IMG/VR virus record: IMGVR_UViG_3300031952_000008
Location: 30,281 to 94,280 of that record
Reading direction: 5' to 3' (one strand)
Source of the DNA: a virus
Length of the DNA stretch: 64,000 nt
The position numbers and the translations under genes were made by a program. The notes below the pieces were generated by a model. The model did not search any database, was not told where the DNA came from, and saw only the letters and a program-made list of their open reading frames with translations. Position 1 is the first letter of the stretch; each line of letters opens with the position of its first letter. Below are positions 28,693-47,240 of the stretch, piece by piece.

Positions 28693-29128
28693 TAAGGTAA
28701 TCATAGGTAAAAGATGTAAGATATGGTACTTTGTTAATTTATACAACTCTATAATAGGAGACGATGTTAATATTGGAGCATTTGTAGAAATACAAAAAGC
28801 TAAAATAGGAAATAGGTGTAGGATAGCCAATGGGTCGTTTATTCCTAATGGTGTTATAATAGGCGATGATTGTTTTATCGGCCCAAAAGTTTGTTTTACC
28901 ACAGATAAATATCCTTCCGTTAAGAAGGCTATGACTCAGAAACAATTTTGGCCAGAAAAACTTACGGTAGTAGGTAATAGAGTAATTATAGGAGCTAATA
29001 CTACCATCTTACCAGGTATAAGTATAGAAGAAGGAGCAATAATAGGAGCAGGAAGTTTAGTAACTAAAGATATAGGTAAAAATGAAGTATGGTATGGTTC
29101 ACCAGCAGTTTGTGTGAGGAAATTATGA
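28655..29128 (+). CDS. Hexapeptide-repeat sugar N-acetyltransferase
   Basis: Left-handed beta-helix repeats (IGDDVNIG, IGANTTILPG, IGAGSLVTKD, GSPA). Confidence 0.9.
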   Translation: MRRIEILTNQIIDKVIIGKRCKIWYFVNLYNSIIGDDVNIGAFVEIQKAKIGNRCRIANGSFIPNGVIIGDDCFIGPKVCFTTDKYPSVKKAMTQKQFWPEKLTVVGNRVIIGANTTILPGISIEEGAIIGAGSLVTKDIGKNEVWYGSPAVCVRKL

Positions 29129-31298: not shown

Positions 31299-32083
31299 TG
31301 TTTCATAAAAGTGCACAATTCTATGATGATTTTTATAATGCCAAATATGATGGTAGGTCTGATAAAGAGGTAAAATACTTAGAAAGTATTATAAAAAAAT
31401 ATAAGGCTAAAAAAATACTTGATTTAGGATGTGGAACAGGAAGACATACACTTGCACTTGCTAAAAAAGGATATGATATTATAGGTGTAGATATTTCGGA
31501 AGATATGATTGATATTGCATTATTAAAAAAGAATAATGCGGATATAAATACTTGGTTAAATACAACTTTTGTAGTGGGAGATATGAGAAATACCTATTGT
31601 GGAAGCAATTTTGACCTAATTTATTCAATGTTTCAATCAATGAACTATCTATTGACGGATTCGAATTTAAGAGATACTCTTTATAATGTAAATACTCAAT
31701 TAAAAAAAGGAGGAATATTCGTTTTCGACTGCTGGTATGGTCCCTCTATTGAAAAATATGGTTGTCCTAAAAAATCTTTCTCTATCAATAAAGGAGATTA
31801 TAAGATATTTAGGGATAGTATAAGTACAATACATTATGGAACCAGAACTGTAGATGTAGAACAATATTTTACTTTATTAAATACCAAAAGTTTACTACAT
31901 AGATTGTTTTTAAGTTATCATTTTAAAGAAAAACATACTATGCGTTTTCACTACTTGACAGATATAGCACCTTTAATACAGGATGCAGGATTTGAGATAG
32001 TAAAGATAGAAGAATGGATAACTAAAAAGAAACCTTCTCCAGATACTTGGGCTATTACTTTTATATGTAAAAAGGTGAGATAA
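31295..32083 (+). CDS. Class I SAM-dependent methyltransferase
   Basis: ILDLGCGTG, GVDISEDM, GDMR and LKKGGIFVFD motifs. Confidence 0.9.
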   Translation: MMFHKSAQFYDDFYNAKYDGRSDKEVKYLESIIKKYKAKKILDLGCGTGRHTLALAKKGYDIIGVDISEDMIDIALLKKNNADINTWLNTTFVVGDMRNTYCGSNFDLIYSMFQSMNYLLTDSNLRDTLYNVNTQLKKGGIFVFDCWYGPSIEKYGCPKKSFSINKGDYKIFRDSISTIHYGTRTVDVEQYFTLLNTKSLLHRLFLSYHFKEKHTMRFHYLTDIAPLIQDAGFEIVKIEEWITKKKPSPDTWAITFICKKVR

Positions 32084-33231
32084 TGAAAACTATTCCAGTT
32101 TGTGAGCCTACTCTTATAGGAAATGAAAAGAAATATGTTAATGAGTGTTTAGATACTAACTGGATTGGTTCTCAAGGTAGATTTATTAAAGAATTCGAAA
32201 CAAAGTTCGCCGAGTTCTGTAAAACAAAATATGCTGTTACTTGTTCTAATGGAACAACAGCTTTACACTTGGCTTTACTAGCTTTAGACATTAAAGAAGG
32301 AGATGAAGTTATAGTACCAACATTTTCTTTTATAGCAAGTTCTAATGCTATAGTTTATGTAGGAGCTAAACCTATATTTATAGACTCCGAACCTATTACT
32401 TATAATATGGATATATCTAAAATAGAGGAAAGAATAACAGAAAAAACCAAGGCTATAATGGTAGTTCATATATTTGGTCAGCCTATGGATATGGATAGGG
32501 TTGTTGAAATTGCCAAAAAACATAACCTTTATATAATAGAAGATTGTGCCGAAGCACACGGGGCCGATTATAAAGGAGACCCTGTAGGAACTATAGGAGA
32601 TGTAGGATGTTTCAGTTTTTATGGAAATAAAATAATTACCACAGGAGAGGGCGGTATGTGCGTTACTAATAACGAAATTCTTTATAAAAGAATGGATTTC
32701 CTTAAAAATCAAGCTTTTGGCGAAATAAGATTTATACATAACGCAGTAGGTTATAATTATAGAATGACTAACATACAAGCCGCTATTGGTTTAGCTCAAT
32801 TAGAAAAGGCCGAAATTCTTATTAGAGGAAGGATAGAGAACGCTTTATTTTATAATAAAGAACTTAAAGATGTAGAAGGAATAACTACCCCATCAGAATA
32901 CGAGCATGGTAGACAAGTATATTGGATGTATGGAATTACTATAGATGAAAAAAAGTTTGGGTTGAATAGAAGTATTATTCAAAAAGAACTAGAAAAGTAT
33001 GGTATAGAAACAAGGTCTTTCTTCTTTCCATTAAATCTACAACCTGCATATATAAACTATGGAATAGATTATATAAAATGTCCAATAGCAGAAGAACTTT
33101 GGAATACAGGATTTTATCTTCCTTCATCAAGTCAATTAGCAGTTGAAGATATACATTATATATGTAATACTATCAAAAATATTAAAACTAATGCTAAAAA
33201 GATTAAAAAGAAGTATGAAGAACTAGAATGA
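32083..33231 (+). CDS. Perosamine-synthase-like DegT aminotransferase
   Basis: SNGTTALHLAL, EDCAEAHG, FSFYGNKIITTGEGGM (PLP Lys present) and GYNYRMTN. Confidence 0.9.
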   Translation: MKTIPVCEPTLIGNEKKYVNECLDTNWIGSQGRFIKEFETKFAEFCKTKYAVTCSNGTTALHLALLALDIKEGDEVIVPTFSFIASSNAIVYVGAKPIFIDSEPITYNMDISKIEERITEKTKAIMVVHIFGQPMDMDRVVEIAKKHNLYIIEDCAEAHGADYKGDPVGTIGDVGCFSFYGNKIITTGEGGMCVTNNEILYKRMDFLKNQAFGEIRFIHNAVGYNYRMTNIQAAIGLAQLEKAEILIRGRIENALFYNKELKDVEGITTPSEYEHGRQVYWMYGITIDEKKFGLNRSIIQKELEKYGIETRSFFFPLNLQPAYINYGIDYIKCPIAEELWNTGFYLPSSSQLAVEDIHYICNTIKNIKTNAKKIKKKYEELE

Positions 33232-34289
33232 TAACTCCCAAACTATACGGATTAACTGTAGAAGTCACTAATATATGTAATCTACATTGTAGTATATGCT
33301 TTAAACGAGGATTAGAAAAGATGAAACCTCAACATCTTAAATTAGAAACATTTAAAAAGCTTTTAAATGAAGCAAACCCTACAAATACTATTTGTTTTGT
33401 TGGATTGGGAGAACCACTTTTGAATCCGGATTTTTATAAGATATTAAAAGAATCCGATAATAGGCATTTAGCTATCAATATGGTTACTAATGGTGTTTTG
33501 ATGGATGAAACTTGGTGTAGAAAAATAGTAGACCTTAGAGTTAGTAAAATAAGTATCTCCCTTGATGCGGCTACTAAAGAAACATATGATAAGATACGAT
33601 TAGGCTCGGATTGGGATAAAGTTATTAAAAATATTAAAACCTTAGTTAAGTTAAGGAATGAATCCGTAACTAAATATCCTCATATTAGAATTGATATGGT
33701 TATGACCAAACAAAACGTTCACGAATTACCTTTATTAGTTAAATTAGGTAAGGAATTAGGAGTAGATTCGGTAAGTACATTACATCCACAATGTTTATTA
33801 AAAGGATTAGAAAAAGAACACATTATCGAAATAGACTTAAACGATACTGTAGATTATTACAAAAAATCAATACTTTTATCTAAAGAACTAGATATAGGGT
33901 TAAAACTTAGACCATTAATAATTAATCTTACAAAATGTAAATCTCCTTGGCTTGATAGTTATATGGATGTTTATGGAGATATATATCCCTGTTGTCTTAT
34001 TGGTTGTATAAAAAGTAGAGCAATAGAGCATTTTAAAGATGTTCCCATGAATTTAGATTTTTCGGACATGGTAATGGGTAATATTCATAAAGATAATTTT
34101 ATGGATATATTTAATAGTAAAAAATATAATGATTTCCGAAACGATACCTTACTAACTTTTATGGAACAAGACATGGCTAACGAAAAAACTAAATTTACTA
34201 TGGAAGATTATATTAAATTAAGGAAGGAAAACAAGGTATGTAAGAATTATTGTAACGTTTGTGGCGTAAGATTTGGGATGGTGTGTTAA
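33228..34289 (+). CDS. Radical SAM / SPASM protein
   Basis: CNLHCSIC, GEPLL, C..PW...YGDIYPCC and C-terminal CxxC. Confidence 0.92.
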   Translation: MITPKLYGLTVEVTNICNLHCSICFKRGLEKMKPQHLKLETFKKLLNEANPTNTICFVGLGEPLLNPDFYKILKESDNRHLAINMVTNGVLMDETWCRKIVDLRVSKISISLDAATKETYDKIRLGSDWDKVIKNIKTLVKLRNESVTKYPHIRIDMVMTKQNVHELPLLVKLGKELGVDSVSTLHPQCLLKGLEKEHIIEIDLNDTVDYYKKSILLSKELDIGLKLRPLIINLTKCKSPWLDSYMDVYGDIYPCCLIGCIKSRAIEHFKDVPMNLDFSDMVMGNIHKDNFMDIFNSKKYNDFRNDTLLTFMEQDMANEKTKFTMEDYIKLRKENKVCKNYCNVCGVRFGMVC

Positions 34290-34290
34290 A

Positions 34291-35382
34291 ATGCGTGTAC
34301 TTTACTTAGCTATGGAGAGTGCGAATTGGATTTTAAATTTGTGCAATGAAATATGCAAAAAAGGGCACGAGGTTACTTGTGTAGTTCAGGGAGTAGATGA
34401 GTACGATAAAGAACATCCTATCATACCCCACGAAAATTTAGAAATTATCTATTGTCCTTATAGAACATTTACAACTCCTTTAGAATTTCAGAAATCGGAT
34501 GTTATGAGAAAACTGATACCTCAAAAATTTGACATAGTGTTCGGTTCCCACGTTCAAGTAAGTCCTGTTACCAAAATGGTTGCTGAAACATTCGGTCTTC
34601 CTTGGGGAATAATGTTATTGGATATACCTACACATCTTATGAAAGTTCAAAGAGGTAGAATGATGGATTGGGTATATTATTTTGACGTAATGAAGTTTGC
34701 TAATGTAATACTTTTTAATACCCACATCGCAAGGGATGAATATTATAAATATACTCATCAATGGTTTGATGACCCTTGTGTTATAACTTATGGAATTAAC
34801 ATGAACGAAGAATACTTTAAAAGTGGATTGGATACTAAAGGAGATTATGTACTTTCTGTGTGTAGAATGAACGAACAAAAGAATTGTAATCTTATACCAA
34901 GAGCATTAGGACTTATTACCGGAATAAAAAAGTATATAGCAGTAGGTTGGGATGATGGAGATTTGGAACTGACTAAAAGACTTTGTGAAGTTAATGGAAT
35001 AGAATTTGAACATTATGAAAATCTTAGTGAAGAAAATAAATTTAAACTAATTAGGGATTGTGCCATGTTAATCTATCCTCAAAAAACAGAATATATAGGA
35101 GGTCTTAGTCCTTGGGAAGGACTGTATGCTAGTAAGCCTGTATTAGTCCCTAAATTAAAAGTTTTGCACGACCTTTATAAAAGTCATGCCATTTATTTTG
35201 AAAACGATAACTCCGTATCCTTAGCAAGAGAAATTTCTTTTACTAATGATATAAGACCTGAAATAACAAGACCTCTTAGGGAACAAGGTGCAGATTTTGC
35301 CAAGATAGAATCTAGTTTTGAAACAATGGCTAGTAGAATGTTACATATATTTGATTCAATAATAAGGAACGTGCAAAAATGA
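34291..35382 (+). CDS. GT4-like glycosyltransferase
   Basis: EYIGGLSPWEGLYASKPV. Confidence 0.8.
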   Translation: MRVLYLAMESANWILNLCNEICKKGHEVTCVVQGVDEYDKEHPIIPHENLEIIYCPYRTFTTPLEFQKSDVMRKLIPQKFDIVFGSHVQVSPVTKMVAETFGLPWGIMLLDIPTHLMKVQRGRMMDWVYYFDVMKFANVILFNTHIARDEYYKYTHQWFDDPCVITYGINMNEEYFKSGLDTKGDYVLSVCRMNEQKNCNLIPRALGLITGIKKYIAVGWDDGDLELTKRLCEVNGIEFEHYENLSEENKFKLIRDCAMLIYPQKTEYIGGLSPWEGLYASKPVLVPKLKVLHDLYKSHAIYFENDNSVSLAREISFTNDIRPEITRPLREQGADFAKIESSFETMASRMLHIFDSIIRNVQK

Positions 35383-36077
35383 AACAGATACCAAATTATT
35401 TTATAAATGCAGTAAAAGAATGTTATGGAATAGATAGGGATGATTTTATAAAAATATTAGAAGACCCTGCTACAAATCAAAAAGCTTGTAATGATGAATG
35501 GGAACATAGAGAAACAAACGATTCCTTTTATCAACATTCTAAAAATTATGTATTTGGGTTAATAGGATTTAATAATCATACTAGAGTATTTAAAGTATTA
35601 TGCCCTATTATGGAAGCGGAAAATAAGAAAATACTTGATTTTGGTGGCGGGATTGGAGAATTAGGTATGCAAATGACTGAAGGTAATGATGTTTACTATT
35701 ATGATTTAGATGGGGAGATACAAAACTTTGCTAAATACTTATCTGCTATGACTAATAGACCTATGACCTTTCTTAAAGAAACAGAAGTTTTTGAACAAAA
35801 ATATGATATTATATTAATTATGGATGTATTAGAGCACTTAGAAGACCCTGTAGGAATACTTAAAAAGTTAATAGATTGTTTAACCCCTAGAGGAATTATA
35901 ATAACTAGTGGTTATAATTTTGTAATTAAAAAAGAATTCCCTATGCATTTGCCTAAAAATAAGGAAGCGAGACAAGGAATATCTGATTTGATGTCTAAAA
36001 ATTTTGATTCATTCTATACTCATTATACAAAAGATGAGACTATATTTGGTATTTATAAAAGGGAGGAGATAAAATGA
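35379..36077 (+). CDS. Class I SAM-dependent methyltransferase
   Basis: ILDFGGGIG and DVLEHLEDP. Confidence 0.88.
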   Translation: MKQIPNYFINAVKECYGIDRDDFIKILEDPATNQKACNDEWEHRETNDSFYQHSKNYVFGLIGFNNHTRVFKVLCPIMEAENKKILDFGGGIGELGMQMTEGNDVYYYDLDGEIQNFAKYLSAMTNRPMTFLKETEVFEQKYDIILIMDVLEHLEDPVGILKKLIDCLTPRGIIITSGYNFVIKKEFPMHLPKNKEARQGISDLMSKNFDSFYTHYTKDETIFGIYKREEIK

Positions 36078-37063
36078 AACGAGTATTTTTAATAGCACCG
36101 TTAGAGGATAATCAGACTGGGTATTACGTTTATGATGCATTTAGGGAACTAGGTTGGGCTGTTGCCATATTAGACCCTAGAGAAGTTGCTAAAAAAGTTG
36201 GGTTGGAGAAGTTACAGACTTTAATAGTTCAACAAATAGACCACTTAAATCCTAAACCTGACTTATTGCTCGTTTTAAAAGGGTTAGAAGTATCTACTGA
36301 GGTTATAGAGTATGCTAAACGACAAGGTATTAAAACCGCTTGTTGGATTTATGATGCCACACTCAATGGAGTTCCTTTACATGAATGTAAACAATATATA
36401 GAACAAATGAAACACTACGATACATTCTATACTTATTGCGATAATGTAGATGAACTATTTGAAGCCGGACTTACTAATGTTAAATTCTTAGCAGAAGGAT
36501 ATGACCCTGTTAGGAACGGAGAGCAGATTATTAATTATTACTTAGAGAAAAAGTTCGGAAGCGATATTCTTTTTATAGGCTCGATGGATAATATACATCC
36601 TTGTAGGGAAGACTTTTTGGAAAGGGTAATTGATGAAGGTTTTGAACTTAAAATTTATGGAGAGATTAAAAAGAAGATTAGTCCTAAAATACATAGTAAA
36701 CATCAAAAGGTTGCTTTAATTAATGAATTTCACAGTTACGCCAGTCAAGCAAGTAAAATTTGTTTAGGAGGACTAGATAGCGATTTTATGACCAAAAGGT
36801 CTCACTCTGCTAGGGTTTATAGAACTCTTGCTTGTGGTGGTTTTTATCTTTGTAGAAGAACTGCTGAGATAGAAAAAGATTTTACTATCGGAGTTCACTT
36901 AGATGTATTCGATACCCCGGACGAAATGGTTGAAAAAATAGTTTATTACTTAAACCATCCTGAAGAGAGGAAGAGAATAGCGGATGCTGGAAAGGAAAAG
37001 GTTAAGGAATATACTTTTGAAAAAAGACTACTGGGAGAATTCGGAAGAGGAGATGTAGAATGA
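36074..37063 (+). CDS. CgeB-like glycosyltransferase
   Basis: DILFIGS, SKICL, RVYRTLACGGFYL and YYLNHPEERKRIA motifs. Confidence 0.85.
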   Translation: MKRVFLIAPLEDNQTGYYVYDAFRELGWAVAILDPREVAKKVGLEKLQTLIVQQIDHLNPKPDLLLVLKGLEVSTEVIEYAKRQGIKTACWIYDATLNGVPLHECKQYIEQMKHYDTFYTYCDNVDELFEAGLTNVKFLAEGYDPVRNGEQIINYYLEKKFGSDILFIGSMDNIHPCREDFLERVIDEGFELKIYGEIKKKISPKIHSKHQKVALINEFHSYASQASKICLGGLDSDFMTKRSHSARVYRTLACGGFYLCRRTAEIEKDFTIGVHLDVFDTPDEMVEKIVYYLNHPEERKRIADAGKEKVKEYTFEKRLLGEFGRGDVE

Positions 37064-37218: not shown

Positions 37219-37518
37219 ATGGAAAAACGAAATCATGCATGGGGGTATGAGCTAATCCTTTGGAAAGACAAAAAGTTTACAGTAAAACTTATACATATAG
37301 ACAATAGTTGTGAAACCGAAGTACATAAGCATATGTATAAGAAAGAATTATTAGTAGATGAGGGACTAAATACAATTTTCGTGGACACTCAACAACTTCA
37401 TGCATTAGTTTGTGAAAAAGGTAGAAATTTTACAGAATTTATAGAGGTTAGTAAAAACGATAGTGACTTTGATAATATAAAGGTAAACATTTATGAGAAC
37501 AATAAAGGAAATAGTTAG
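37219..37518 (+). CDS. Cupin (mannose-6-phosphate isomerase type II-like)
   Basis: HAWGYE...HKH..KKE...HAL...IEVS. Confidence 0.65.
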   Translation: MEKRNHAWGYELILWKDKKFTVKLIHIDNSCETEVHKHMYKKELLVDEGLNTIFVDTQQLHALVCEKGRNFTEFIEVSKNDSDFDNIKVNIYENNKGNS

Positions 37519-39148
37519 TGATTTTGTAAAATTTTATTCATACTTTAACGAGGACTATAAAAACATTAACCTAGATGACCCTATACAGTTTTCCGTGGTC
37601 TTTCAAAAACTTATTTCCAAAGTTTATGAAGAAAAAAATGGTTGTTTTTACTTTAAAAAGTTCATTTTAGGTCCTATGGAAGAGACTGGAAGTGGTGGAA
37701 TACGATGGAATAGTCTATTCCAACGATGGTTTGATATTCAAAGACGTAATAAAGGTAAGTATTTATCTCTATTATGTAGTAGAAGTCATGGTAAAACCAC
37801 GTTTTTTAGCATAATTATGACGATTTATAAAGCTTATATTCATAAAAACTATCAACAAGTCATCATTTCCGCCTCATCCACGCAATCTGACCTTATAATC
37901 CGAGATATTAGAACTATTATTGAAAATAACGAGCTTTTGTTCAAATTAGTCGATTTTAAGCATTGGAGCACTGAATTTCTTGCTTTTAATGGTGGATTCA
38001 TCATTTCTCGAGGTATCGGAGCAGAAATTAGAGGATTACACCCTCATAGAGTAATTTTGGATGATATACTTAGGTCTGATGAGAAACTTTCTAAGGATAA
38101 GATAGAAAGTTATGTATTCGAAGACATTATTCCAGCTATATCTCCCAAAAATGGAGACTTAGTTATAGTAGGAACTAAAAAAGATGCTACTGATATATTC
38201 AGTTGTATAGGGGAAATGATAAAAGATGGTGCTACTAAATGGAAGTTTTATAAGTTCCCAGGTATTTTAGACTTTGAAAAGAAAATTACTTTAGCTCCTG
38301 ACCTTAAGAGTTTTGATGAATTAATGGAAATGAAGAAAACCATGGGCACTCTTAGGTTTAATAAGGAAATATTGTGTGAGGCCATCGCTGAGGGGTCTAG
38401 AATTTTTGATGAAAACCTACTTGAATTAGCTAAGGATAAAACTTTAACTTACGAAGATACTCCAGAAAAGGGAGCAAGTTACTATGCTGGAGCCGATTTA
38501 GCTAGGAGCGGTAGTGCTAGTGCAGATTTTACTGCTGTAGTTTTCCTTAAATTTATAGAAGCTTATAATTATATGGTAGTGGCGGATGTTTATCATAAGA
38601 AAGGAATTAAAATAAGGAACCAAGTTAAAGATGTTAGTTTATTATGTGAAAAATTTAATGGAGCCATTATATTAGTAGAGGAGAACAATTTCGGAAAAGA
38701 TTTCATTGACTTAATGGCTGAAGAATACAATACCGCAGTTGAGCCTATAAGAACCACGGATAAAACCAAAGAAGATATAGTAAGGATATTAATAACTTCT
38801 TTTGAACAAGAAAAGATTAAGTTTCCTTACATGACTGAGGGAGATAGAAGGCTTACTGAATTAGTGCTTGATGAACTTAGAAATTATGTTGTCAAACTAA
38901 CCCCGGCAGGGAATGAAAAACTTGAAAGTTCCGGGGGCAAACATGATGACTTAGTTGATGCTTTAGGTTTTGCTCTTAAATGTAGCAGGATTAGCGGTGC
39001 AGAACCGGGACCTCTTGCTAAAGGAAGTAATGATAGAGGTAGTGAATTAGAGAACATGATAGATATGGGAATGATTCCCGAAAGAGAAAGCATGGATGGG
39101 TTAGATATGCCCACAATATTTTTTAACAATAGGAGGAACACAAGATGA
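37493..39148 (+). CDS. terL: Terminase large subunit
   Basis: Walker A SRSHGKTT, Walker B VILDD, nuclease motifs GADLA and HDDLVDAL. Confidence 0.92.
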   Translation: MRTIKEIVSDFVKFYSYFNEDYKNINLDDPIQFSVVFQKLISKVYEEKNGCFYFKKFILGPMEETGSGGIRWNSLFQRWFDIQRRNKGKYLSLLCSRSHGKTTFFSIIMTIYKAYIHKNYQQVIISASSTQSDLIIRDIRTIIENNELLFKLVDFKHWSTEFLAFNGGFIISRGIGAEIRGLHPHRVILDDILRSDEKLSKDKIESYVFEDIIPAISPKNGDLVIVGTKKDATDIFSCIGEMIKDGATKWKFYKFPGILDFEKKITLAPDLKSFDELMEMKKTMGTLRFNKEILCEAIAEGSRIFDENLLELAKDKTLTYEDTPEKGASYYAGADLARSGSASADFTAVVFLKFIEAYNYMVVADVYHKKGIKIRNQVKDVSLLCEKFNGAIILVEENNFGKDFIDLMAEEYNTAVEPIRTTDKTKEDIVRILITSFEQEKIKFPYMTEGDRRLTELVLDELRNYVVKLTPAGNEKLESSGGKHDDLVDALGFALKCSRISGAEPGPLAKGSNDRGSELENMIDMGMIPERESMDGLDMPTIFFNNRRNTR

Positions 39149-39552
39149 AAACAACTATAATAGCTTTATTAGCAATGCTTTTACTAAGCATGGTAGTAAT
39201 TGCTTCGGAAGATAGCGAACCTAACCTTATTTCCGAACAAAATAAGGTAGATAAGATAGATAGGTTGGCTGGAATTGCTAATGCAATTACTAGAGGAAAT
39301 AAGAGTGAAGAAACAATTCAGAAACTAACCGAGGTCTTGAACAAGATAGAAGATAAAAGGTTAGAAGTTATACAGAAACTTGAAGACTTAAAGATAGACA
39401 TGAATAAGACCAAAGACAAGGTATTAATAGAAGGAGAGAAAGAGGGTAAGTTCTTAGGTTTATTTAAGGCTAGACATACTGAAATGTATGAAGTAAGTGA
39501 GGATGGTTCCGTTAAGGAGAAAGGTTGGTTTAAGTGGCTATGGAAGGATTAA
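39145..39552 (+). CDS. Secreted or membrane-anchored hypothetical protein
   Basis: Signal peptide MKTTIIALLAMLLLSMVVIA. Confidence 0.6.
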   Translation: MKTTIIALLAMLLLSMVVIASEDSEPNLISEQNKVDKIDRLAGIANAITRGNKSEETIQKLTEVLNKIEDKRLEVIQKLEDLKIDMNKTKDKVLIEGEKEGKFLGLFKARHTEMYEVSEDGSVKEKGWFKWLWKD

Positions 39553-39798
39553 AGTTAGAAAATAGATTATCCGAAACCAGATAGTTATTCTGGTGAAATA
39601 AAGGTTTTACCAACTTTACCAAAGTATAGTTATGTATTCAGTTGCCCAAAGTGTGGAAGTCACAACTTTATAGACTTCGTGGACACTGATTGTCCAACAT
39701 TTTGGGACAAGGATGATGTAAAAAGAATATGTGCTTGGTGTTATGAAGGCGGCTTGGATGAAAAGGAAAGTGGATGTTATGGTAAAACCGAACAATAA
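39540..39798 (+). pseudogene. Zinc-ribbon gene, frameshifted or with an ATA start; paralog of 40408..40602
   Basis: Frame 39562..39798 encodes EIKVLPTLPKYSYVFSCPKCG...CAWC but has no upstream ATG. The ATG at 39540 is one base out of frame. Confidence 0.45.
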
Positions 39799-39899
39799 TT
39801 CGAAACATTTAAATAGTTGAACATACATTACTATATATACCTCTAAGATTTTTATATAAAATTTATAAAGTTTATAAGAATTCTTAGTTTATCTTAAAA

Positions 39900-40346
39900 A
39901 TGTTTAAAACAAGTATGCCTAAAGATTTAGAAGAACGCCTTAAAAGTTTCTCTATAGTATTTAAGGAAAACGATAAGGTTCCTGATAGCATTAATAGTAT
40001 CAACTATGTTATTAAAGATTACATTAGTAATTATTGGAAAGACTTGGAAAAGATTAGGGACTTAAATGACCAAAACTTTATTGCTTTCGAATCCTCCCTC
40101 TACTCTTATCTTAGGAAATATTATATTGGTAAAACTCCTTTAACTAGTAAGGTCTTGGATGTGGCGGATTATTTTGTGGGGTTAGAACATGTTCAAGCAC
40201 CGATTGATAAGATTAGGGAAATGGTTAAGGTGTACATGGTTAGTAAGGACTTGTATGAAGGTAAACTGGCTGGGTTGGATAGTGAAAGCTTTCGTCAAGT
40301 TCGTACAGATGTTTACCAAGTTCTAAAGCGTGTCTATAAACGCTGA
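39900..40346 (+). CDS. Hypothetical protein
   Basis: 148 aa, downstream of CGAAACATTTAAATA at 39801. Confidence 0.6.
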   Translation: MFKTSMPKDLEERLKSFSIVFKENDKVPDSINSINYVIKDYISNYWKDLEKIRDLNDQNFIAFESSLYSYLRKYYIGKTPLTSKVLDVADYFVGLEHVQAPIDKIREMVKVYMVSKDLYEGKLAGLDSESFRQVRTDVYQVLKRVYKR

Positions 40347-40407
40347 ACACAAAACTTTTGAGTTATTATATTCATAATAACTTTATGTTTTTATATGGTA
40401 AATTATT

Positions 40408-40602
40408 ATGCCAAAAAATTCCCAAGAGTCATTTTATCAAAATGACACAAAAGACATCTTTCTAAACCAGAACGGTTGGAAAATAACAATACTACCACCA
40501 CTACCCACCTATTTCTCATACAACTGCCCCAAGTGCGGCGTATCCCTAAGATTCGGCAAAACAGTAACCGCCACAACAACATTCTGTAATACGTGCCAAT
40601 AA
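40408..40602 (+). CDS. Small zinc-ribbon protein
   Basis: CPKC...CNTC. Confidence 0.55.
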   Translation: MPKNSQESFYQNDTKDIFLNQNGWKITILPPLPTYFSYNCPKCGVSLRFGKTVTATTTFCNTCQ

Positions 40603-40791
40603 GGGAATAGTAGATGTAACAATAGCAATACCCCAAATTCTTTACGAAGTTAGTTTTTCTAAAAATATACCCCGCTGGCAGAGGAGTAGAGCTATAGAGT
40701 TATCTTGCTTGTTTAGACTATTCTTGTCACTACTAAGTATTAACTACTATATAGTGACGATTTTTATTTGTTTCGCCGTGCCTTGTATTTA

Positions 40792-40806
40792 CGAAAGATT
40801 TATATA
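40792..40806 (+). promoter_or_regulatory. BRE+TATA early promoter
   Basis: CGAAAGATTTATATA, identical to the copy at 45809. Confidence 0.75.
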
Positions 40807-40883
40807 CTTGTTCTACTTAATAGCTTTTATTTCGTAATTAATAGTTACGAAAGATTAGTTAAACATTAGTGAGCGTGAATAAA

Positions 40884-41180
40884 ATGAGCGAAAAACAAAC
40901 AGAACATAAACAAGCAGAACAATTTGTGTTAGATATGTCAGCAATTAAGACAAAACAGCAAGAAGCGTCAGCAGAAGCAGTAAGCGTCTTTTTTTGTAAG
41001 AAAGACAGCACAGATTTAATAAGCAAAAATCTGTCAGAAACTAAAGCGTATCTTGAAAAGCACGAAACTGCTTTTTTGAATAGTCTTATTGCTATGAATA
41101 GTAATAAGAAATTAACTACTGACACGTTTCATTTGTTTTTGTCAGCAATAATTAAGCAAAAAGTTTTTGCTAAGCAGTAA
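40884..41180 (+). CDS. Small early protein, paralog A
   Basis: Own promoter and poly-T terminator; clearly homologous to 41573..41839. Confidence 0.8.
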   Translation: MSEKQTEHKQAEQFVLDMSAIKTKQQEASAEAVSVFFCKKDSTDLISKNLSETKAYLEKHETAFLNSLIAMNSNKKLTTDTFHLFLSAIIKQKVFAKQ

Positions 41181-41186
41181 AAAAAT

Positions 41187-41232
41187 ACTGCTTCTTTTTC
41201 TTTTTTTTTTCTTTATTTCTTTTCTATTTCTT
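41187..41232 (+). terminator. Oligo-T terminator
   Basis: Long T tracts directly after the stop codon. Confidence 0.7.
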
Positions 41233-41486
41233 AATTACTTTTAATACTACTTGAAACAATACTCTTTATTCTATTGATTAAACTACAAGACACGATACAA
41301 CATTAAACGGCGTTAATGTGGCACGCCTAATTGTTCGGATTTTCCTGTTTAGTAAATCAGTATAAGAATACAGCACACGCCACGCCACATCCACGCCACT
41401 CAATTGTTCTTCCGTGGTTATCTGAAAAACTCGGTTTACGCCGTGCCATTCCATACAATAGTCCTAACCCCTTATAAAGGGATAAT

Positions 41487-41501
41487 AGAAAGATTTATAT
41501 A
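41487..41501 (+). promoter_or_regulatory. BRE+TATA early promoter
   Basis: AGAAAGATTTATATA. Confidence 0.72.
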
Positions 41502-41572
41502 TTAGTCTTACTTCCTAACCTTTAAACTTCAGTATTTAACTTCTAAAGTTAATAAATACTGATTTAAGAAAA

Positions 41573-41839
41573 ATGTCAAATACCGAATTTAGTTTAGATT
41601 TAACGCAAGTTAAAGCAAAACAATTAGAGCAAAGTGCCGAACCTGTTAGTGCTTTCTTTTGTAAGAAAGATAACTCGGATTTAATAAGTAAGAATATGTC
41701 CGAGACTAAAGCCTATCTTGAAAAGCACGAGCCTGTTTTTATGAAAGCATTAGTAAGTTTGAACGATAACAAAAAACTTACCACAGATACTTTCCACACT
41801 CTTTTAAGTGCTGTAATAAAACAGAAAGTCTTTAAATAA
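41573..41839 (+). CDS. Small early protein, paralog B
   Basis: Shares FFCKKD..DLISKN.SETKAYLEKHE and NKKLTTDTFH with paralog A; followed by a T-tract. Confidence 0.8.
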   Translation: MSNTEFSLDLTQVKAKQLEQSAEPVSAFFCKKDNSDLISKNMSETKAYLEKHEPVFMKALVSLNDNKKLTTDTFHTLLSAVIKQKVFK

Positions 41840-42173
41840 GACTTTTTCTTTTTCTTTATTTTTTTAATCTTTTTCTCGGATTCTATCATTAAAGTCTATA
41901 AACACTATCCTTTAAAAACGAAGTGCCACGGCACATTCACACCACTCAATTCTTTGTGTTTGGTTATTTAAAAACCGAGCCGTGAAATACCATAACTGAA
42001 CCGAGGCCGTGCCTCTTAATTTTATATAAATCCGTGATTAACTTATAAATGACAACACGCTTTATATAAATGTTAAGAATTTATATAATTTATTAGCACA
42101 ACATATATATAGTAAGACTGCTTTACTACTTGTTAAAATGTGTTATAAATCAATAAAATCGGAGCGTGAAATT

Positions 42174-43676
42174 ATGAAAAATGTAGAAGCAGAAGAATTT
42201 GAAAATGACGAGCCACACGCAGAAAACTGCGAGTGTGCCGAATGTAAGAGTTTGATGTATATACAAGAAGTTAATAGTGTTGCCGATAAACTTAGCAAAT
42301 ACGAAATCAGTTTTTTATCCGATGTTCTAAAAACATTAAAATCAAGAGTGAAACAATGATTAAAGTCCTAATAGAACCGGAAAATAAGATAGTAGAAACA
42401 CAGCAAATAATACTCACAGAAAAAAGTTATCCTTCAGATAACCTTAAAATTTCTTTAAAGAACGGAAAATTGATGTTTAGAGTTCATATTGATGACCTCG
42501 GAAATACATTCAAATGTGATGTTTCCGAGTTCATAGATAGTTTAAAACAAATTGGAGCGTGGAATGTATGAGCGTAAAAGAAAATAAGTTAAGACAAAAA
42601 ATAGAGATTAGTGTGGAAAAGAGTGATACGGACTTTAATCCGATAATCACTTTTGTTAAGACAATAGCAGAAATGAACGGACAAAAGGTGGAAGGAACTA
42701 TTGAATCCTTTAATATTGAGGCATCAACCGATTGGTGTTCCAAACAAATAGAAAGGATTAATATAAACATCAAAACCGTCACCGAAGACCGTTTGTGCTT
42801 ACTTGATAGTAAGACAATAGAAATTAAGGGGAAGTAAAATTCCTCATTTTTTTTATTTTTTATAATCATAATTGGAGGTTATTAAAATGGAAGAATTGAA
42901 GATAGAGAATGTTAAGCAAGGAATTTGTAAGATTTCACAATTAGAAACAGGATTCGGAGAAAAACCTGATGTAATTGTGTTAGACATACAAGACTGGAAA
43001 AGGATAGGGAAAGTAATGCGGTGGGAACAATGGTAAAAGCAAAAATAGGAGACCATTTAACAAATGGTCTTGACTATAATCGTTCCGAGAATTGTAGTAT
43101 GAGTAAAGAACAAATAGTTAAATTAGTGGAAGACATTCTCGGAAAGAAACTTGTAGAACCTAAACTTAGCCGCTGGGGACTACGATGGAGCGGTATTAGT
43201 ATTAATGAACAAGAATTGGAGGAGGAACTAATATGAGAAAGAATCCATTAAAAGGAAAAATGTCTATACATCAGTTTAGTGGTGATAGAACAAACGAAGA
43301 AAAAAGGATAGGTAACAATTACTTAAATTGTAACTACGAAGAGGTAGAACAAAATGAAAATTGAAGTAAGATTTTTGACCGAAAGGAAAGGAAGACCAGT
43401 TCGTAAAGAACTGAACAAGGTAGGCTCCGTAATTGTCAGATTTATTGCTGACATTACAAAAAAAAGGCGAGATGTATGTCCAAAATAGAAAACCTTGGAC
43501 ATGGAGTAGAACGATTAGTGTTCAAAGTAGAACCTTTGGACGCACTCGTTTTAAAAGTAATCCAAGCAGATGTGGAACGCTTAAACATTATAAAAGATGT
43601 TACTAGTGTTCCGGAACCGGAAGTTCAGGAATTATATCCTGGAACTCCTTACTCTTGCGATTACTTAAAAGATTGA
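42174..43676 (+). other. Run of small early hypothetical ORFs (42174-42359, 42356-42571, 42568-42837, 43021-43236, 43476-43676 and shorter ones)
   Basis: Overlapping start/stop codons and RBSs; no recognisable domains. Confidence 0.55.
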
Positions 43677-43700
43677 TTGTTCTATAAAGGAACTACACCT

Positions 43701-43778
43701 CGGAAGGAAGGTATGGGTGGTCACGCTCTTCATACTTTCCTTCCGCCTTTTTCTTAAGACCTTTTACTTAAAAGGTCT
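43701..43778 (+). terminator. Two adjacent hairpins ending the early ORF run
   Basis: CGGAAGGAAGGTATG/CATACTTTCCTTCCG (15 bp, one G-U) followed by a T-run, then AGACCTTTT-ACTT-AAAAGGTCT. Confidence 0.65.
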
Positions 43779-44260
43779 CATTTAGATTATTGAAACGCTG
43801 TTCTTTAGTGCTGTTTGACTGCTGACATCAGAGTAATGAACGCAAACACGCACATCCTACAGCGAGATGAGCCACGGCCCCTACTATAAGATAGACTATA
43901 TTGAGTGGTGATAGTGTGTGCCGTGCCTTGTAAGAAGATTGTGGCGAACACGCACAGCACGGGGCCGTGCCTCGTAACTGATACGCCATACGGAGTAGTG
44001 TTACTACTGGAGAGTAGTTTATACTTTTTACTCCTGAATAGTAGTTACATTCACACCGCTTAATTCTTCCATGGGGGCTGTTTGAAAACTGGGCCGTGCC
44101 TTTTAAGGTTTCAAGGCTCTAAAAGTGGTGATTTTAGCCGCCGCCAGCCGTGCCTCTTAAGTTATCTCGGATGTTACTACTACATAGTGACTAAAAGAGT
44201 GTTGCCTCTATTAAGTAGTAAAATATTGTTGTTACTTTCAAGTGACAACTCCCGCAAAAT

Positions 44261-44275
44261 CGCAACATTTATATA
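44261..44275 (+). promoter_or_regulatory. BRE+TATA promoter
   Basis: CGCAACATTTATATA upstream of the gene at 44372. Confidence 0.6.
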
Positions 44276-44371
44276 GTAGTTATACTTAATGAATAGCGTA
44301 TTTATAAACCAGCGTTCAAAAGCGGTTTTATAGAATACCAAGAGAATTTAAACAAACCGAGGTGGTTTGAA

Positions 44372-44878
44372 ATGAGTAAAGGCAAAGAAAAGGAAGTAGT
44401 AGAGGTTGGTGTTGAGGAAGTTGTTGATATAAAATCAGCAACCAATCCAAAAAAAGGCAAAGTGGCTTTAACTTTGGATAACAAAGCAGTAGTCAATGTA
44501 GGAAGTAGCAAAGAAATTAGTGGTGGCGAAACCATTTTGGTCTCGGATTGGAATCCAGGACAGGCACCACACTTCAGTATTCCATTTGGCGTATTGACTG
44601 AATTAGTCAAAGCAGGAAAACTGATTCCTTTGGGAAAATATGGGGATGTGGATGTTGTTGATGCCGACGATGCTTTGGATATTGTAAAGTCCGCTGTTGA
44701 AAAGCAGTATGGAATAGAGTGGAAAGCAGGAAAGAGTGGAGCAACCAAGGCATACAAGGAAACCGCTGAGGCAGCCATTAAAATGGTTATGGACATGGCT
44801 AAGTGCGACAGAGCAGCCGCTTTGGAAAGGTTGAAGTCCTTTAAAGCAATAGGAAAAGAACTTCCAGAAGAGGAGTAA
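44372..44878 (+). CDS. Hypothetical protein (monocistronic, probably abundant)
   Basis: GAGGTGG RBS, own promoter and T-tract terminator. Confidence 0.75.
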   Translation: MSKGKEKEVVEVGVEEVVDIKSATNPKKGKVALTLDNKAVVNVGSSKEISGGETILVSDWNPGQAPHFSIPFGVLTELVKAGKLIPLGKYGDVDVVDADDALDIVKSAVEKQYGIEWKAGKSGATKAYKETAEAAIKMVMDMAKCDRAAALERLKSFKAIGKELPEEE

Positions 44879-44930
44879 ATACTCCTCAATTTTTTTTTCT
44901 TTAAACCCAGAGCCGTGTTATGGCTCGGGT

Positions 44931-45242
44931 TTATACATTATTTGCCGAAACAAATCCTGAATTCTTTACCATTAACTGGTTTAAATAAGTATCTAATTCT
45001 TTTTTAATCGTCGCCCAAATGGCATTAGCATAAGGTTCTACCATTTTCTCTGCCAGTTGTTGCGCCCTAAAATCTAAATCCTTCTTAACAGATTGTAACC
45101 TTGCCTCCACACTTTCCGGGTCAATAATACACAATTTCAAACCAACATATTTCTTATTAAGCCGTATATGACCACTATTTCCACACTTCTCAACCATGTA
45201 ATGGTCTTCCGTATTTCTAAAGTCTTCATATAAGTTTTCCAT
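44931..45242 (-). CDS. DUF2080-like (AbrB-type) small DNA-binding protein
   Basis: VEKCGNSGHIRLNKKYVGLKLCII resembles the archaeal V..FGNSAHV.LPK.WIG.KV pattern; GAGGTGG RBS. Confidence 0.6.
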   Translation of the reverse strand: MENLYEDFRNTEDHYMVEKCGNSGHIRLNKKYVGLKLCIIDPESVEARLQSVKKDLDFRAQQLAEKMVEPYANAIWATIKKELDTYLNQLMVKNSGFVSANNV

Positions 45243-45568
45243 AATCCACCACCTCAATGTACTACATTGTCCTTAATTAAGTACATTGTAATACATAATG
45301 TAAGTTCCGATATATAAATGCTTGTATTACACGCCACGCCGCACTGCCGCCAGTTAATTCTCATTATTCGCCTGTTTAATAACCGTGGCTCGTAATGTAG
45401 GTTCCGAACGTACGCCGAGCCGTGAAATAACTGGCCGAGCCGTGTAATGTCATACAATGTAGTACCAGCGACGACGAACTAGGCCGTGGAATGACATTAT
45501 GACACCACAACCGAAACAATATATGTTCCTTATACAGAAGAAAAGACCAGCGGAACAGGCACAGATAC

Positions 45569-45625
45569 TACCTTATGACCTACCTTATGACTATTATTTT
45601 ACCTTATACCTGTTTAATACCTTAT
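45569..45625 (+). repeat. Four TACCTTAT direct repeats
   Basis: Copies at 45569, 45581, 45600 and 45618. Confidence 0.65.
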
Positions 45626-45808
45626 ATTACTTGGTATTCCTATATATATGGTATTTTTTATTGTGTTGCGGAAAGTTCCGAAGTTCCGAACCTTTTCCTG
45701 ATTAATAGGAAAGAGGAATAAGTTGTTCAATAGTGGGTTTTGTTGTTTGGAAATCGTAAAATCCTTGTTTGGATGTTACTACTCAATAGTAATAGAACTT
45801 AACAAAAA

Positions 45809-45823
45809 CGAAAGATTTATATA
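45809..45823 (+). promoter_or_regulatory. BRE+TATA promoter heading the long early operon
   Basis: CGAAAGATTTATATA. Confidence 0.75.
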
Positions 45824-46027
45824 CTCAAGACACTCAGATATTAGTATAGTGTTTCGGAAGAAAAGAAAGAGGGAAATCACGAAAGAGGTGATTTCTTAAA
45901 GAGGTTAGTTTGATGGTAAAAGTGAAGAGGATATCATCTTATAGGTTAAATGACTGGCTTGTGGAAGCCATATTCTCTTTAATTATTCTATCCTTATTTT
46001 TGGTAAAAGAAGTTGAGGTGATTTTAT

Positions 46028-47240
46028 ATGGTATGTGAATGGTGCGGAAATGTAAAGGCAGAAATGTTCTGCGATAGTAATTGTGCCTATAACCTACTGG
46101 TTATCCTTAGGCAGTTAGCAAAATACCGGAATATGGTTCCTTTAAGTGATAAGGACTCTAAAATGTTGGAGTTACTGGAACAAGTTAATCCTCGTCCCAC
46201 TTTCAAAAGAGGCGATGGAACGGTTAATGAAGTGGTGGTTGAAAATGGATAATTGTCCTAAATGTAAAACATCCTTGTTTCCCAAAGATATTGTTATGAG
46301 AGTAAGGTGTATTATAGGCTTAAAAGATTATAATTTTCTGGGTATTTTACCATTAACTAAAGGAATTTTTCGTTGTGAGATATGGTATAGATGTCCTAAA
46401 TGTTTTAAGGTAATTAAGGAACGGTGGAACGAATGAAATACAAGGATGGTATGCGAGACCACTTTATCAAAGTAGCACACTTGGAAACTATCAAGGTTAT
46501 CAAGGATAAAATCACACCTAAAGTTGTAGATTATATCTTGACCACGCCCATATACCAGCCGCCAGAGATACAAATGCCTTTAATGGATTATATCCTGGCG
46601 GTTTATGATAATTCAATAATGGGTTGGAAGTTGTATAAGGAAGTGTTCAGCCAACGGATAGGAGATTACTTAATAGGGCTACCAATTCCTATAATAAAGA
46701 CCGTGGGTTCCAGTCATATTCCAATTCAGGCACGTAGACCGTTTGGAACTATAATAAATAAGGATGGAATAAAGGTTAGTAGTTAAAAATCTTGTATGGA
46801 GAAGTTATTCTCCTAAAGCCATTATTCATAATGGCTAAATTGGCTTATTTCTGTTGTTTAGAAATCCTTGTTTTCAATTTAAGGATTCGGTGAGATAATA
46901 TGGGTATGAAAATAAAAAAATGTTGTAAAATAATAGGGAATATACATTCAACCATCACTCCTAATGGTGTGATGCTTTTTGATACTGATGGTTTAAGCAA
47001 TTTTAAATATTGTCCTTTTTGTGGAAGTAGAATAAAGATTAAGGTGAGAAAATGAAATTCAAGTATTATTTTTATTCCTATGATAGAAAAAGAAAACTAA
47101 AAATAGGAGATAGAATAAAAAACGGAGAAGATGTATTGTTTTATAAAGAAAGTGAAGGCTATTTAAGTTTAGGAAACGATAATCTTATACCACAAATATT
47201 AAAAGGCAATAAAATAGTTACAGATGAGGTGAGAAAATGA
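46028..47240 (+). other. Small early ORFs, several with CxxC zinc ribbons (46028-46252, 46245-46436, 46433-46786, 47052-47240)
   Basis: RBSs, overlaps and CxxC pairs. Confidence 0.55.

What the first reader, a model, noticed from the sequence alone, without database searches (positions are those of the whole stretch)
40783..41308. About 525 bp, including a whole gene with promoter and terminator, contain no CC or GG dinucleotide
Seen: I found no CC or GG from 40783 to 41308. The stretch 40685-40775 is also free, the only break being the GCCGTGCC motif. The adjacent paralog (41573..41839) has about 9 such dinucleotides, and its two Pro codons (CCN) correspond to Ala and Thr here (EPV to EAV, EPVF to ETAF). 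The likely RBS reads GAGCGTGA, with no GG. Caveat: both paralogs lack Gly and Trp, and the terminator is T-rich, which lowers the expectation. Inference: this may be first-entering DNA purged of CC/GG-containing PAMs (CCN, NGG) or restriction sites (GGCC, CCGG, CCWGG, GGNCC), so that an anti-defence protein is made before the DNA can be cut.
Basis: partly seen in the sequence, partly recalled or inferred. Interest (0 to 1): 0.8.

Follow-up and report, generated by a model that had tools for sequence, protein, structure and literature searches.

The report
CC/GG-free gene unit, archaeal virus
One small gene of an uncultured archaeal-type tailed virus from sediment, together with its promoter and terminator, contains no CC or GG in its DNA, which chance cannot explain and which suggests that something in the infected cell reads that two-letter step, though I could not identify what.

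Summary
No CC or GG occurs between window 40782 and 41309, a gap of 528 bp. About 20-28 are expected, and the next longest gap in the 94,280-bp viral contig is 173 bp. With 40684-40774 added, 625 bp hold only the two CC of one GCCGTGCC motif.

The ban shows at three levels:
- **Synonymous codons:** 0 observed against 7 expected, exact P = 3-4e-4.
- **Amino acids:** this is the only one of 137 ORFs with no Pro, Gly or Trp.
- **Non-coding flanks:** 0 observed against 11-15 expected.

The tandem paralog has the same 14-nt promoter core and is 69% identical in protein. Its count is normal (9 against 8.7 expected), and both copies are under purifying selection. Fourteen outside homologs total 1,433 residues with no Pro, no Trp and two Gly.

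Deamination, chance and avoidance of 4-6-bp restriction sites do not fit. My best reading (0.4) is selection at the DNA level that hides an early unit from a factor reading CC/GG, most likely PAM-dependent CRISPR. Position at the entering end and an anti-defence role are untested. No homolog DNA could be fetched.

This scan's unchecked notes report similar cassettes in at least ten other phage and archaeal virus genomes.

The parts
40669..40683 (.). GC-rich hairpin (CCCCGCTGGCAGAGG) that marks the left edge of the CC/GG-free zone. The last CC/GG before the zone start at 40670-40683.
40684..40774 (+). Upstream spacer of 91 bp with no CC/GG (4.0-5.4 expected). It holds an inverted repeat GTCACTA...TAGTGAC at 40726-40758, related to the GTTACTACT..TAGT motif found upstream of other promoters at 43999, 44172 and 45774.
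40775..40782 (+). GCCGTGCC motif, the only CC-containing word kept inside the 625-bp zone. It is one of 7 exact plus-strand copies, all in intergenic DNA between 40775 and 44154 and mostly just upstream of TATA boxes. It is probably a regulator site. One strain variant (run X4) lacks it.
40791..40808 (+). Archaeal-type BRE/TATA promoter P1 (ACGAAAGATTTATATACT). The 18-mer recurs exactly at 45808. Its 14-nt core GAAAGATTTATATA is also exact at 41488, the promoter of paralog B.
   Evidence: reading it as a promoter is inferred from the consensus, no RNA data
40847..40866 (+). Second BRE/TATA-like element P2 (TTACGAAAGATTAGTTAAAC). In runs X2 and X3 the sequence left of 40847 is replaced, and in X4 the stretch 40726-40846 is deleted. 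P2 is therefore the promoter that all strains share, and it would give a leaderless or near-leaderless mRNA.
   Evidence: inference
40871..40878 (+). GAGCGTGA, a possible weak ribosome-binding site without GG, 5 nt before the ATG.
   Evidence: inference
40884..41180 (+). Gene A, 98 aa, with no Pro, Gly or Trp and no CC/GG. It belongs to a small uncharacterised family. Residues 31-95 are modelled with confidence as a beta-hairpin plus three helices.
41172..41230 (+). Terminator: hairpin AAGCAGTA-N6-TACTGCTT built without GG/CC, followed by a long T-rich run.
41231..41308 (+). Downstream spacer, still CC/GG-free. The zone ends sharply at 41309, where the GC-rich upstream element of unit B begins.
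41309..41447 (+). Upstream element of unit B. It holds the 50-nt repeat (copies at 41379, 41925, 44039, 45333) and GCCGTGCC at 41440. It is dense in CC/GG, unlike the matching part of unit A.
41486..41875 (+). Unit B, the internal control. It has the same promoter core (41488-41501), gene B (41573-41839, 88 aa, 69% identical to A, 2 Pro, 9 CC/GG against 8.7 expected) and a T-rich terminator.

Best explanation
Unit A is a complete archaeal-type expression unit: upstream operator-like repeats, BRE/TATA promoter(s), a 98-aa gene, a hairpin plus T-run terminator, and spacers. Natural selection keeps the two-letter DNA word CC/GG out of it on both strands. The one exception is a GCCGTGCC regulatory motif.

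The ban is total, strand-symmetric, and covers coding and non-coding DNA alike.

The most likely reader is PAM-dependent CRISPR adaptation or interference (CCN on one strand reads as NGG on the other). A unit without PAMs cannot yield spacers and cannot be targeted directly.

Such pressure can be local. The papers I read report that spacers are taken mainly from first-injected free ends and, for type III systems, from early-expressed genes. An early unit that must be expressed before or during attack gains most from being invisible.

**Shown:** the ban, its three levels, its restriction to unit A, purifying selection on both paralogs, and a family nearly free of Pro/Gly/Trp.

For: - **Size of the effect.** The gap is 528 bp against an expected maximum of about 125, and it is unique in the genome and among dinucleotide classes.
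- **Synonymous level.** 0 against 7.0-7.3 expected, exact P 3-4e-4. Gene A is the sole outlier among 137 ORFs; the next lowest observed/expected ratio is 0.76.
- **Non-coding DNA.** 0 against 10.9-15.3 expected. This includes about 100 bp upstream of the TATA box and about 80 bp beyond the terminator, which points to DNA rather than mRNA.
- **Both strands.** CC (about 10 expected) and GG (about 10 expected) are both absent.
- **Selection, not mutation.** At B's eight aligned CC/GG sites, A has CA, GC, AG, CA, CG, AC, CT and TC. This is a mix of transversions and transitions, not a deaminase pattern.
- **Both paralogs functional.** pN is 0.21 and pS 0.88, yet only A is free of the word.
- **Family pattern.** Fourteen outside homologs (1,433 aa) have 0 Pro, 0 Trp and 2 Gly. 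B's two Pro are derived.
- **Strain variants.** In three other sediment metagenomes, 9 substitutions plus a 30-nt alternative upstream sequence create no CC/GG.
- **An exception that fits.** The only CC-bearing word kept is a recurrent regulatory motif.
- **Word length.** 4-6-bp sites are too rare here (about 0.2 expected per 4-mer) to explain 20-28 missing dinucleotides.
- **Literature.** Genome-wide PAM depletion, including the CC PAM, is known (PMC4246573, PMC12174588). Spacer capture is reported to favour first-injected ends (Modell 2017, as cited in PMC6546361) and early-expressed genes (PMC13575424).
- **Layout.** The order TerL, small genes, strong promoter, small gene resembles the T7 concatemer junction, where about 850 bp enter first (PMC11863960).
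Against: - CC and GG are enriched genome-wide (1.5x and 1.23x), so there is no general PAM pressure on this virus.
- Paralog B and the third cassette (42138-42359) are not depleted, and B has the same promoter core as A. Early timing alone therefore cannot be the reason.
- Cutting anywhere else in the genome would still kill the virus, so a local PAM-free zone helps only under special assumptions: a leading end, a spacer-capture hot spot, or benefit to kin from anti-defence protein made by a doomed genome.
- The host, its CRISPR type and its PAM are unknown.
- Scan notes (unchecked) report the same GG/CC ban in phages of very different hosts. That fits a universal reader better than host-specific PAMs, although GG/CC bans are also the easiest to notice.
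- The strain substitutions are weak evidence: by chance none would create CC/GG with P = 0.17.
- No DNA of any homolog could be examined.
Confidence: 0.4

Rival explanations
1. RNA-level escape. The transcript, and an antisense transcript, must lack CC (and GG) to survive a dinucleotide-specific ribonuclease. Examples are a Csx1-type type III CRISPR effector or a host or viral shut-off RNase. The protein could then still be made while other mRNAs are destroyed.
For: Sulfolobus islandicus Csx1 is reported to cut between two cytosines (PMC9704534). The free zone is roughly the transcription unit. The putative RBS and the terminator hairpin are also built without GG/CC.
Against: GG is absent as completely as CC (about 10-12 expected), which would need a second enzyme or a functional antisense RNA. 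About 100 bp upstream of the TATA box and about 80 bp past the terminator are also free. No RNA data exist.
Confidence: 0.12
2. Self-immunity. Protein A, or another viral factor made with it, binds, cuts or marks nucleic acid at GG/CC steps, for example to shut off the host. The gene that encodes it must lack the target so that it stays expressed.
For: The near-absence of Pro/Gly/Trp follows the gene family across 14 distant homologs from unrelated contigs. This ties the ban to this gene rather than to a genome position. The family has a conserved polar motif (N49, E58, and NLSET in most members) and no known fold. One scan note proposed a phage's own DNA-marking enzyme for a similar island (unchecked).
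Against: The rest of the virus is rich in CC/GG and would be hit too. Paralog B keeps the conserved motif but is not protected. The virus's only clear DNA methyltransferase is CcrM-like (adenine-type), and there is no C5 methylase. A 65-aa domain with no nuclease or methylase signature is an unlikely enzyme.
Confidence: 0.12
3. Physical or chromatin property. DNA without GG/CC steps is needed at this spot for mechanics or access. Possibilities are a packaging or ejection end, exclusion of archaeal histones so that naked incoming DNA can be transcribed at once, or fewer oxidation-prone GG doublets in a gene that must work before repair.
For: The ban is strand-symmetric and ignores the coding/non-coding border. 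The unit lies 1.5 kb after the large terminase gene, in a repeat-rich regulatory region. A physical cause would explain recurrence in phages of unrelated hosts (unchecked notes).
Against: Graded physical effects should lower the count, not remove every one of 20-28 occurrences. The GCCGTGCC motif is tolerated. Paralog B and other promoters nearby are normal. No known mechanism requires it.
Confidence: 0.1
4. Imported cassette. Unit A was recently acquired from another element whose DNA is generally poor in CC/GG, so the pattern reflects the donor and not selection here.
For: The region is a mosaic of cassettes with recombination breakpoints at 40725 and 40847 in other strains. A-type orthologs exist in other contigs (P0003).
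Against: No genome with such a composition is known. The zone's edges match the expression unit exactly. A and B are saturated at synonymous sites (pS 0.88), so the state has been held for a long time. The explanation only moves the question to the donor.
Confidence: 0.08
5. Chance or base composition: low G+C, a T-rich terminator and a helical protein without Gly or Trp.
For: Local G+C is 27.8%. Paralog B also lacks Gly and Trp.
Against: P is 1.6e-9 or lower with composition fixed. With the protein fixed P is 3-4e-4, and the non-coding DNA alone gives about 2e-5.
Confidence: 0.001

Closest known systems
PAM depletion in phage genomes (Kupczok and Bollback 2014, PMC4246573; the CC PAM of type I-F in Pseudomonas phages, PMC12174588)
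   Same: A short word read by CRISPR systems is under-represented through selection. CC/GG is the word in the I-F case. The effect is seen beyond codon bias.
   Different: The published cases are mild depletions spread over whole genomes. Here the genome as a whole is enriched in CC/GG, and one 0.5-0.6-kb expression unit is completely free, down to giving up three amino acids. Host and PAM are unknown.
Leading-end strategies of T7 (about 850 bp enter first, the rest is pulled in by RNA polymerase, and Ocr is the first protein; PMC11863960) and T5 first-step-transfer DNA (from my own knowledge)
   Same: A short stretch with strong host-type promoters and a small first gene lies next to the packaging genes on the map. 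The idea is that the first DNA exposed must escape nucleases until a protective protein is made.
   Different: No end was mapped here. The terminase looks T4-like by weak Pfam hits, which may mean headful packaging without a fixed end. No dinucleotide ban is described for T7 or T5. Protein A is unrelated to Ocr.
GG/CC-free gene cassettes noted elsewhere in this scan (unpublished, unchecked AI notes)
   Same: They describe a whole small expression unit free of GG/CC whose proteins lack Gly, Pro and Trp. The unit is often called early or next to packaging genes. Two cases are in probable archaeal tailed viruses.
   Different: No sequence similarity links this family to those windows. Here a non-depleted tandem paralog serves as an internal control, and no relatives' DNA was available.
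Motif-free mRNAs that resist sequence-specific RNases (Csx1 cutting C|C, PMC9704534; mRNAs without ACA that resist MazF, from my own knowledge)
   Same: A gene escapes a nuclease by lacking its short target.
   Different: Here both CC and GG are absent, and so are they in the likely non-transcribed flanks.

Membership tests
PAM-depleted phage DNA (CRISPR escape by motif avoidance) | The word is under-represented beyond base composition and codon bias | tested here: met
   0 against 20-28 expected with composition fixed. 0 against 7.0-7.3 with the protein fixed, P 3-4e-4.
PAM-depleted phage DNA (CRISPR escape by motif avoidance) | The avoided word is the PAM of a CRISPR system in the host | not testable with these tools
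   The host is unknown. Searches of the genome, viral and metagenome collections gave no relatives. No spacer database was at hand.
PAM-depleted phage DNA (CRISPR escape by motif avoidance) | Depletion across the genome of the targeted phage | tested here: not met
   CC is 1.5x and GG 1.23x over expectation in the window. All other 136 ORFs have observed/expected ratios of 0.76 or more.
First-entering (pre-early) DNA of the T7/T5 type | The stretch lies at a physical end of virion DNA and enters first | not testable with these tools
   Only assembled contigs of other runs could be laid, which cannot show ends. The record is an 82%-complete fragment without end repeats.
First-entering (pre-early) DNA of the T7/T5 type | Strong host-type promoter(s) and a small first gene next to the packaging module | tested here: met
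   A consensus BRE/TATA lies at 40791-40808, with a second at 40847-40866. Gene A is 98 aa. The large terminase gene is at 37493-39148. Promoter function is inferred.
Anti-CRISPR or anti-restriction proteins | Similarity to a known anti-defence family or fold | tested here: inconclusive
   There is no Pfam, PHROG or PDB-sequence hit for the family. The model has pLDDT about 90 over residues 31-95 and no fold match; the best Z is 3.1. Many anti-defence proteins are orphans, so this neither supports nor excludes the role.
Restriction-site avoidance | Missing words are 4-8-bp recognition sites | tested here: not met
   Every CC and GG is missing, not only those inside palindromes. Each 4-mer such as GGCC is expected only about 0.2 times in 526 bp at 28% G+C (computed from the composition).

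The most novel reading that the evidence does not exclude
Tailed viruses of archaea as well as of bacteria keep one first-expressed gene cassette invisible to a still unidentified cellular or viral factor. That factor reads the bare dinucleotide step GG/CC on incoming DNA or on its transcripts. The gene family found here, which almost never uses Pro, Gly or Trp, would be an archaeal-virus example. Its non-protected tandem paralog would offer a natural control pair for finding the factor.
Probability: 0.3. Interest if true: 0.85.

Novelty: new variant of a known kind. Interest (0 to 1): 0.62.

Why it matters
Motif avoidance is a fingerprint of what attacks a virus. A total, local ban on a two-letter word, strong enough to remove three amino acids from a protein family, implies a reader with very short specificity acting at a particular place or time in infection.

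It would also mark candidate anti-defence genes and possibly the leading end of uncultured archaeal viruses from sequence alone.

By this scan's unchecked notes, it recurs in many unrelated phages.

The A/B pair has the same promoter core and 69% identical proteins, with one copy banned and one not. That makes it a ready-made experimental contrast.

Tried and rejected
**DNA of homologs.**
- The search for related loci found no true relative. I tried A, alignment A2, P0004, P0007 and P0024 in viral contigs, and A2 in metagenome and genome contigs.
- L003 and L004 were spurious matches inside a larger protein.
- Alignment A3 was too diverse for that tool.
- Degenerate DNA patterns found nothing (one search was a format slip).
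- tblastn of A, P0006, P0012 and P0016 against GenBank phages found nothing.

**Relatives of the virus.**
- The large terminase found one contig at 28% identity, with no long CC/GG gap.
- blastn of 37493-43000 against phages found nothing.

**Host.** A DegT query returned only distant bacterial hits at 28-32% identity. The Asgard virus paper I opened has no PAM data.

**Expression.** No RNA holder was listed among the sequencing runs.

**Ends.** The laid runs are contigs only. Their breaks and lack of cover at 40712-40846 reflect strain differences and low depth, not termini. The alternative upstream sequences do not match elsewhere in the genome.

**Function.**
- The ESM Atlas gave no usable hit.
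- The first AlphaFold model, from 4 sequences, was poor (pLDDT 55).
- Rfam had no family above its threshold in 40300-46200.
- The RNA folds of both transcripts are only about 2 SD below shuffles, A slightly more than B.

**A viral CC-specific methylase.** There is no C5 methylase. The N6/N4 enzyme is CcrM-like and carries an intein. The D12-class hit is below its cut-off.

**Deaminase hypermutation.** Rejected from the substitution spectrum.

**Second-longest gap.** The 173-bp gap at genome 7586-7759 has 6.5 expected and is not significant.

Searches timed out and were redone.

Full report
**What the window is.** The window is bases 30281-94280 of a 94,280-bp IMG/VR viral contig. The record is classed as linear, about 82% complete, and has no end repeats. 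It encodes portal, capsid-like, tail tube and tape-measure proteins, and a large terminase at 37493-39148. Promoters are of the archaeal BRE/TATA type and terminators are T-runs. It has no close relative among GenBank phages. Near-identical DNA occurs only in sediment metagenomes. I read it as an uncultured tailed virus of an unidentified sediment archaeon; the host is not known.

**The observation.** There is no CC or GG between 40782 and 41309, a gap of 528 bp.
- The 526-bp stretch has 74 C and 72 G. It should hold 20.2 CC+GG with independent bases, or 28.1 with the genome's own dinucleotide bias.
- None of 20,000 shuffles went below 6.
- The next longest gap in the genome is 173 bp and is not significant.
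- Among the ten strand-symmetric dinucleotide classes, only CC/GG has a longest gap far above its expected maximum, 528 against about 125.
- Upstream, 40684-40774 is also free. The 625-bp zone 40684-41308 therefore holds only the two CC of GCCGTGCC at 40775-40782.
- The zone ends sharply on both sides in GC-rich sequence.

**Three independent levels.**
- **Synonymous codons.** With the protein fixed and codons redrawn from the genome's usage, gene A (40884-41180) expects 7.0-7.3 CC/GG and has 0. The exact P is 3.3e-4 to 4.4e-4. It is the only outlier among 137 ORFs; the next lowest ratio is 0.76.
- **Amino acids.** A is the only ORF with no Pro, Gly or Trp, the three residues whose codons must contain CC or GG. 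The genome-wide share of these residues is 10.8%.
- **Non-coding DNA.** The three non-coding pieces expect 10.9-15.3 and have 0. They include sequence upstream of the TATA box and beyond the terminator.

CC and GG are each absent with about 10 expected. The pattern is therefore strand-symmetric and not confined to the coding sequence or, probably, to the transcript.

**The internal control.** Unit B follows directly. It has the same 14-nt promoter core (GAAAGATTTATATA, exact at 40793, 41488 and 45810) and an 88-aa gene 69% identical to A.
- B has 9 CC/GG against 8.7 expected and two Pro.
- Between A and B, pN is 0.21 and pS is 0.88. Both copies are held by purifying selection on the protein, and the duplication is old.
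- At B's eight aligned CC/GG sites, A reads CA, GC, AG, CA, CG, AC, CT and TC. This mix of transversions and transitions is not the signature of a CC-specific deaminase.
- The state of A is therefore maintained by selection.

**Relatives.**
- An exhaustive profile search found 13 distant homologs of 89-126 aa with E-values from 1e-8 to 2e-4. A closer search found an A-type ortholog, P0003.
- All come from short metagenome contigs.
- These 14 outside proteins total 1,433 residues with no Pro, no Trp and two Gly. Even at B's own rate of 2 in 88, that is P = 3e-12. The variable N-terminal tails follow the same rule.
- At the positions of B's prolines, no homolog has Pro, so B is the derived, relaxed copy.
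- Lack of these residues is a necessary condition for a CC/GG-free gene. It suggests that the ban travels with the family, but it is not proof. I could not obtain the DNA of any homolog (see Tried and rejected).

**Strain variants.** Related strains in three other sediment runs show 9 substitutions and several small indels inside the zone, and none creates CC/GG. By chance that outcome has P = 0.17, so it is weak evidence.
- In two runs the sequence left of 40847 is replaced. The 30 nt that are visible are also free of CC/GG.
- In one run 40726-40846 is deleted, which removes the GCCGTGCC motif and promoter P1.
- P2 at 40847-40866 is therefore the promoter shared by all strains.

**The protein.**
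- With the 16-sequence alignment, AlphaFold gives pLDDT of about 90 for residues 31-95: a beta-hairpin followed by three helices.
- No fold match was found. Foldseek found none in PDB and only E above 4 in BFVD, and the best VIA-align Z was 3.1.
- There is no Pfam, PHROG, PDB-sequence or Atlas hit.
- The function is unknown.

**What can be excluded.**
- **Chance and composition**, as shown above.
- **Deaminase-type hypermutation**.
- **Restriction-site avoidance.** 4-mers such as GGCC are expected only about 0.2 times here, so they cannot account for 20-28 missing dinucleotides.
- **A CC-specific viral methylase.** None is evident. There is no C5 enzyme, and the one clear DNA methylase is CcrM-like and interrupted by an intein.

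**Best explanation (confidence 0.4).** Selection keeps unit A invisible to a factor that reads CC/GG on double-stranded DNA. The likeliest factor is PAM-dependent CRISPR adaptation or interference, where CCN on one strand is NGG on the other.
- Genome-wide PAM depletion is established, including for the CC PAM (PMC4246573, PMC12174588).
- A local effect needs a local reason, and the literature offers two. Spacers are reported to be captured mostly from the first-injected free end (Modell 2017, as cited in PMC6546361). Type III systems are reported to capture spacers preferentially from early-expressed genes (PMC13575424).
- The map order resembles the T7 concatemer junction: large terminase, three small genes, strong promoter, small gene. 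In T7 about 850 bp enter first and RNA polymerase pulls in the rest (PMC11863960).

These steps are inferred, not shown.

**Weaknesses of this reading.**
- CC/GG are enriched genome-wide.
- B, with the same promoter core, is unprotected.
- The host and its PAM are unknown.
- The terminase has weak T4-like Pfam hits, which may mean headful packaging without a fixed end.

**Rivals.**
- **Dinucleotide-specific RNase (0.12).** An example is Csx1, which cuts between two C (PMC9704534). It explains CC but not GG or the flanks.
- **Self-immunity to the unit's own product (0.12).** This fits the family-wide pattern, but not the unprotected paralog or the CC/GG-rich rest of the genome.
- **Physical or chromatin requirement (0.1).** This would explain recurrence across hosts, but not a total ban.
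- **Import from an unknown donor (0.08).** This only moves the question elsewhere.

**Context from this scan.** Unchecked notes describe the same kind of GG/CC-free cassette, with proteins lacking Gly, Pro and Trp, in at least ten other phage genomes. Two are probable archaeal tailed viruses. None shares sequence with this family. I could not test those notes.
- GG/CC bans are also the easiest kind to notice.
- My literature searches found no published description of such local bans.

**Verdict.** I rate it a new variant of motif avoidance, with interest 0.62.

Noticed in passing
window 40775-45441: GCCGTGCC occurs 7 times exactly, always on the plus strand and always between genes (40775, 41440, 42006, 43920, 43964, 44093, 44147). 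Variants of the form GCCGAGCCGTG lie at 45414 and 45434. With one mismatch allowed there are 14 matches against 4.3 expected. Most lie 15-55 bp upstream of TATA boxes. It is probably the site of a regulator of this promoter class.
   Followed up: partly
window 41379-41428, 41925-41974, 44039-44088, 45333-45382: A roughly 50-nt GC-rich non-coding repeat (GCCACGCCACA..CCACTCAATT..) precedes four promoters in the region. Unit A lacks it and has CC/GG-free sequence in its place.
   Followed up: partly
window 40793, 41488, 45810: Three exact copies of the 14-mer GAAAGATTTATATA (BRE plus TATA) define one promoter class. The copies at 40791 and 45808 match over 18 nt.
   Followed up: partly
window 40726-40846 and 40847: There are strain differences in other sediment metagenomes. 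One has a 121-bp deletion that removes GCCGTGCC and promoter P1. Two have a different sequence left of 40847. One contig (run X3) joins the leader of unit B (41538-41575) to a different gene. The region behaves as a set of exchangeable cassettes.
   Followed up: partly
L009:772-2466 (genome 15271-16965, before the window): A 564-aa CcrM-like N6/N4 DNA methyltransferase is interrupted by an intein with a LAGLIDADG homing-endonuclease domain.
   Followed up: partly
window 40884-41180 against 41573-41839: The two paralogs differ at 88% of synonymous sites, above the 75% saturation level, while the proteins are 69% identical. The tandem copies may be kept apart at the DNA level, for example to avoid recombination between them.
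   Followed up: no
window 22213-22499: A 287-bp intergenic region with 20% G+C separates the leftward structural module from the rightward genes. It carries two divergent TATA promoters, at 22297 (minus strand) and 22441 (plus strand).
   Followed up: no
window 24204-37063: A large sugar-modifying gene cluster (a DegT-family aminotransferase at 27218-28348, among others) lies upstream of the large terminase gene. A first-stage note places it between the small and large terminase genes.
   Followed up: no
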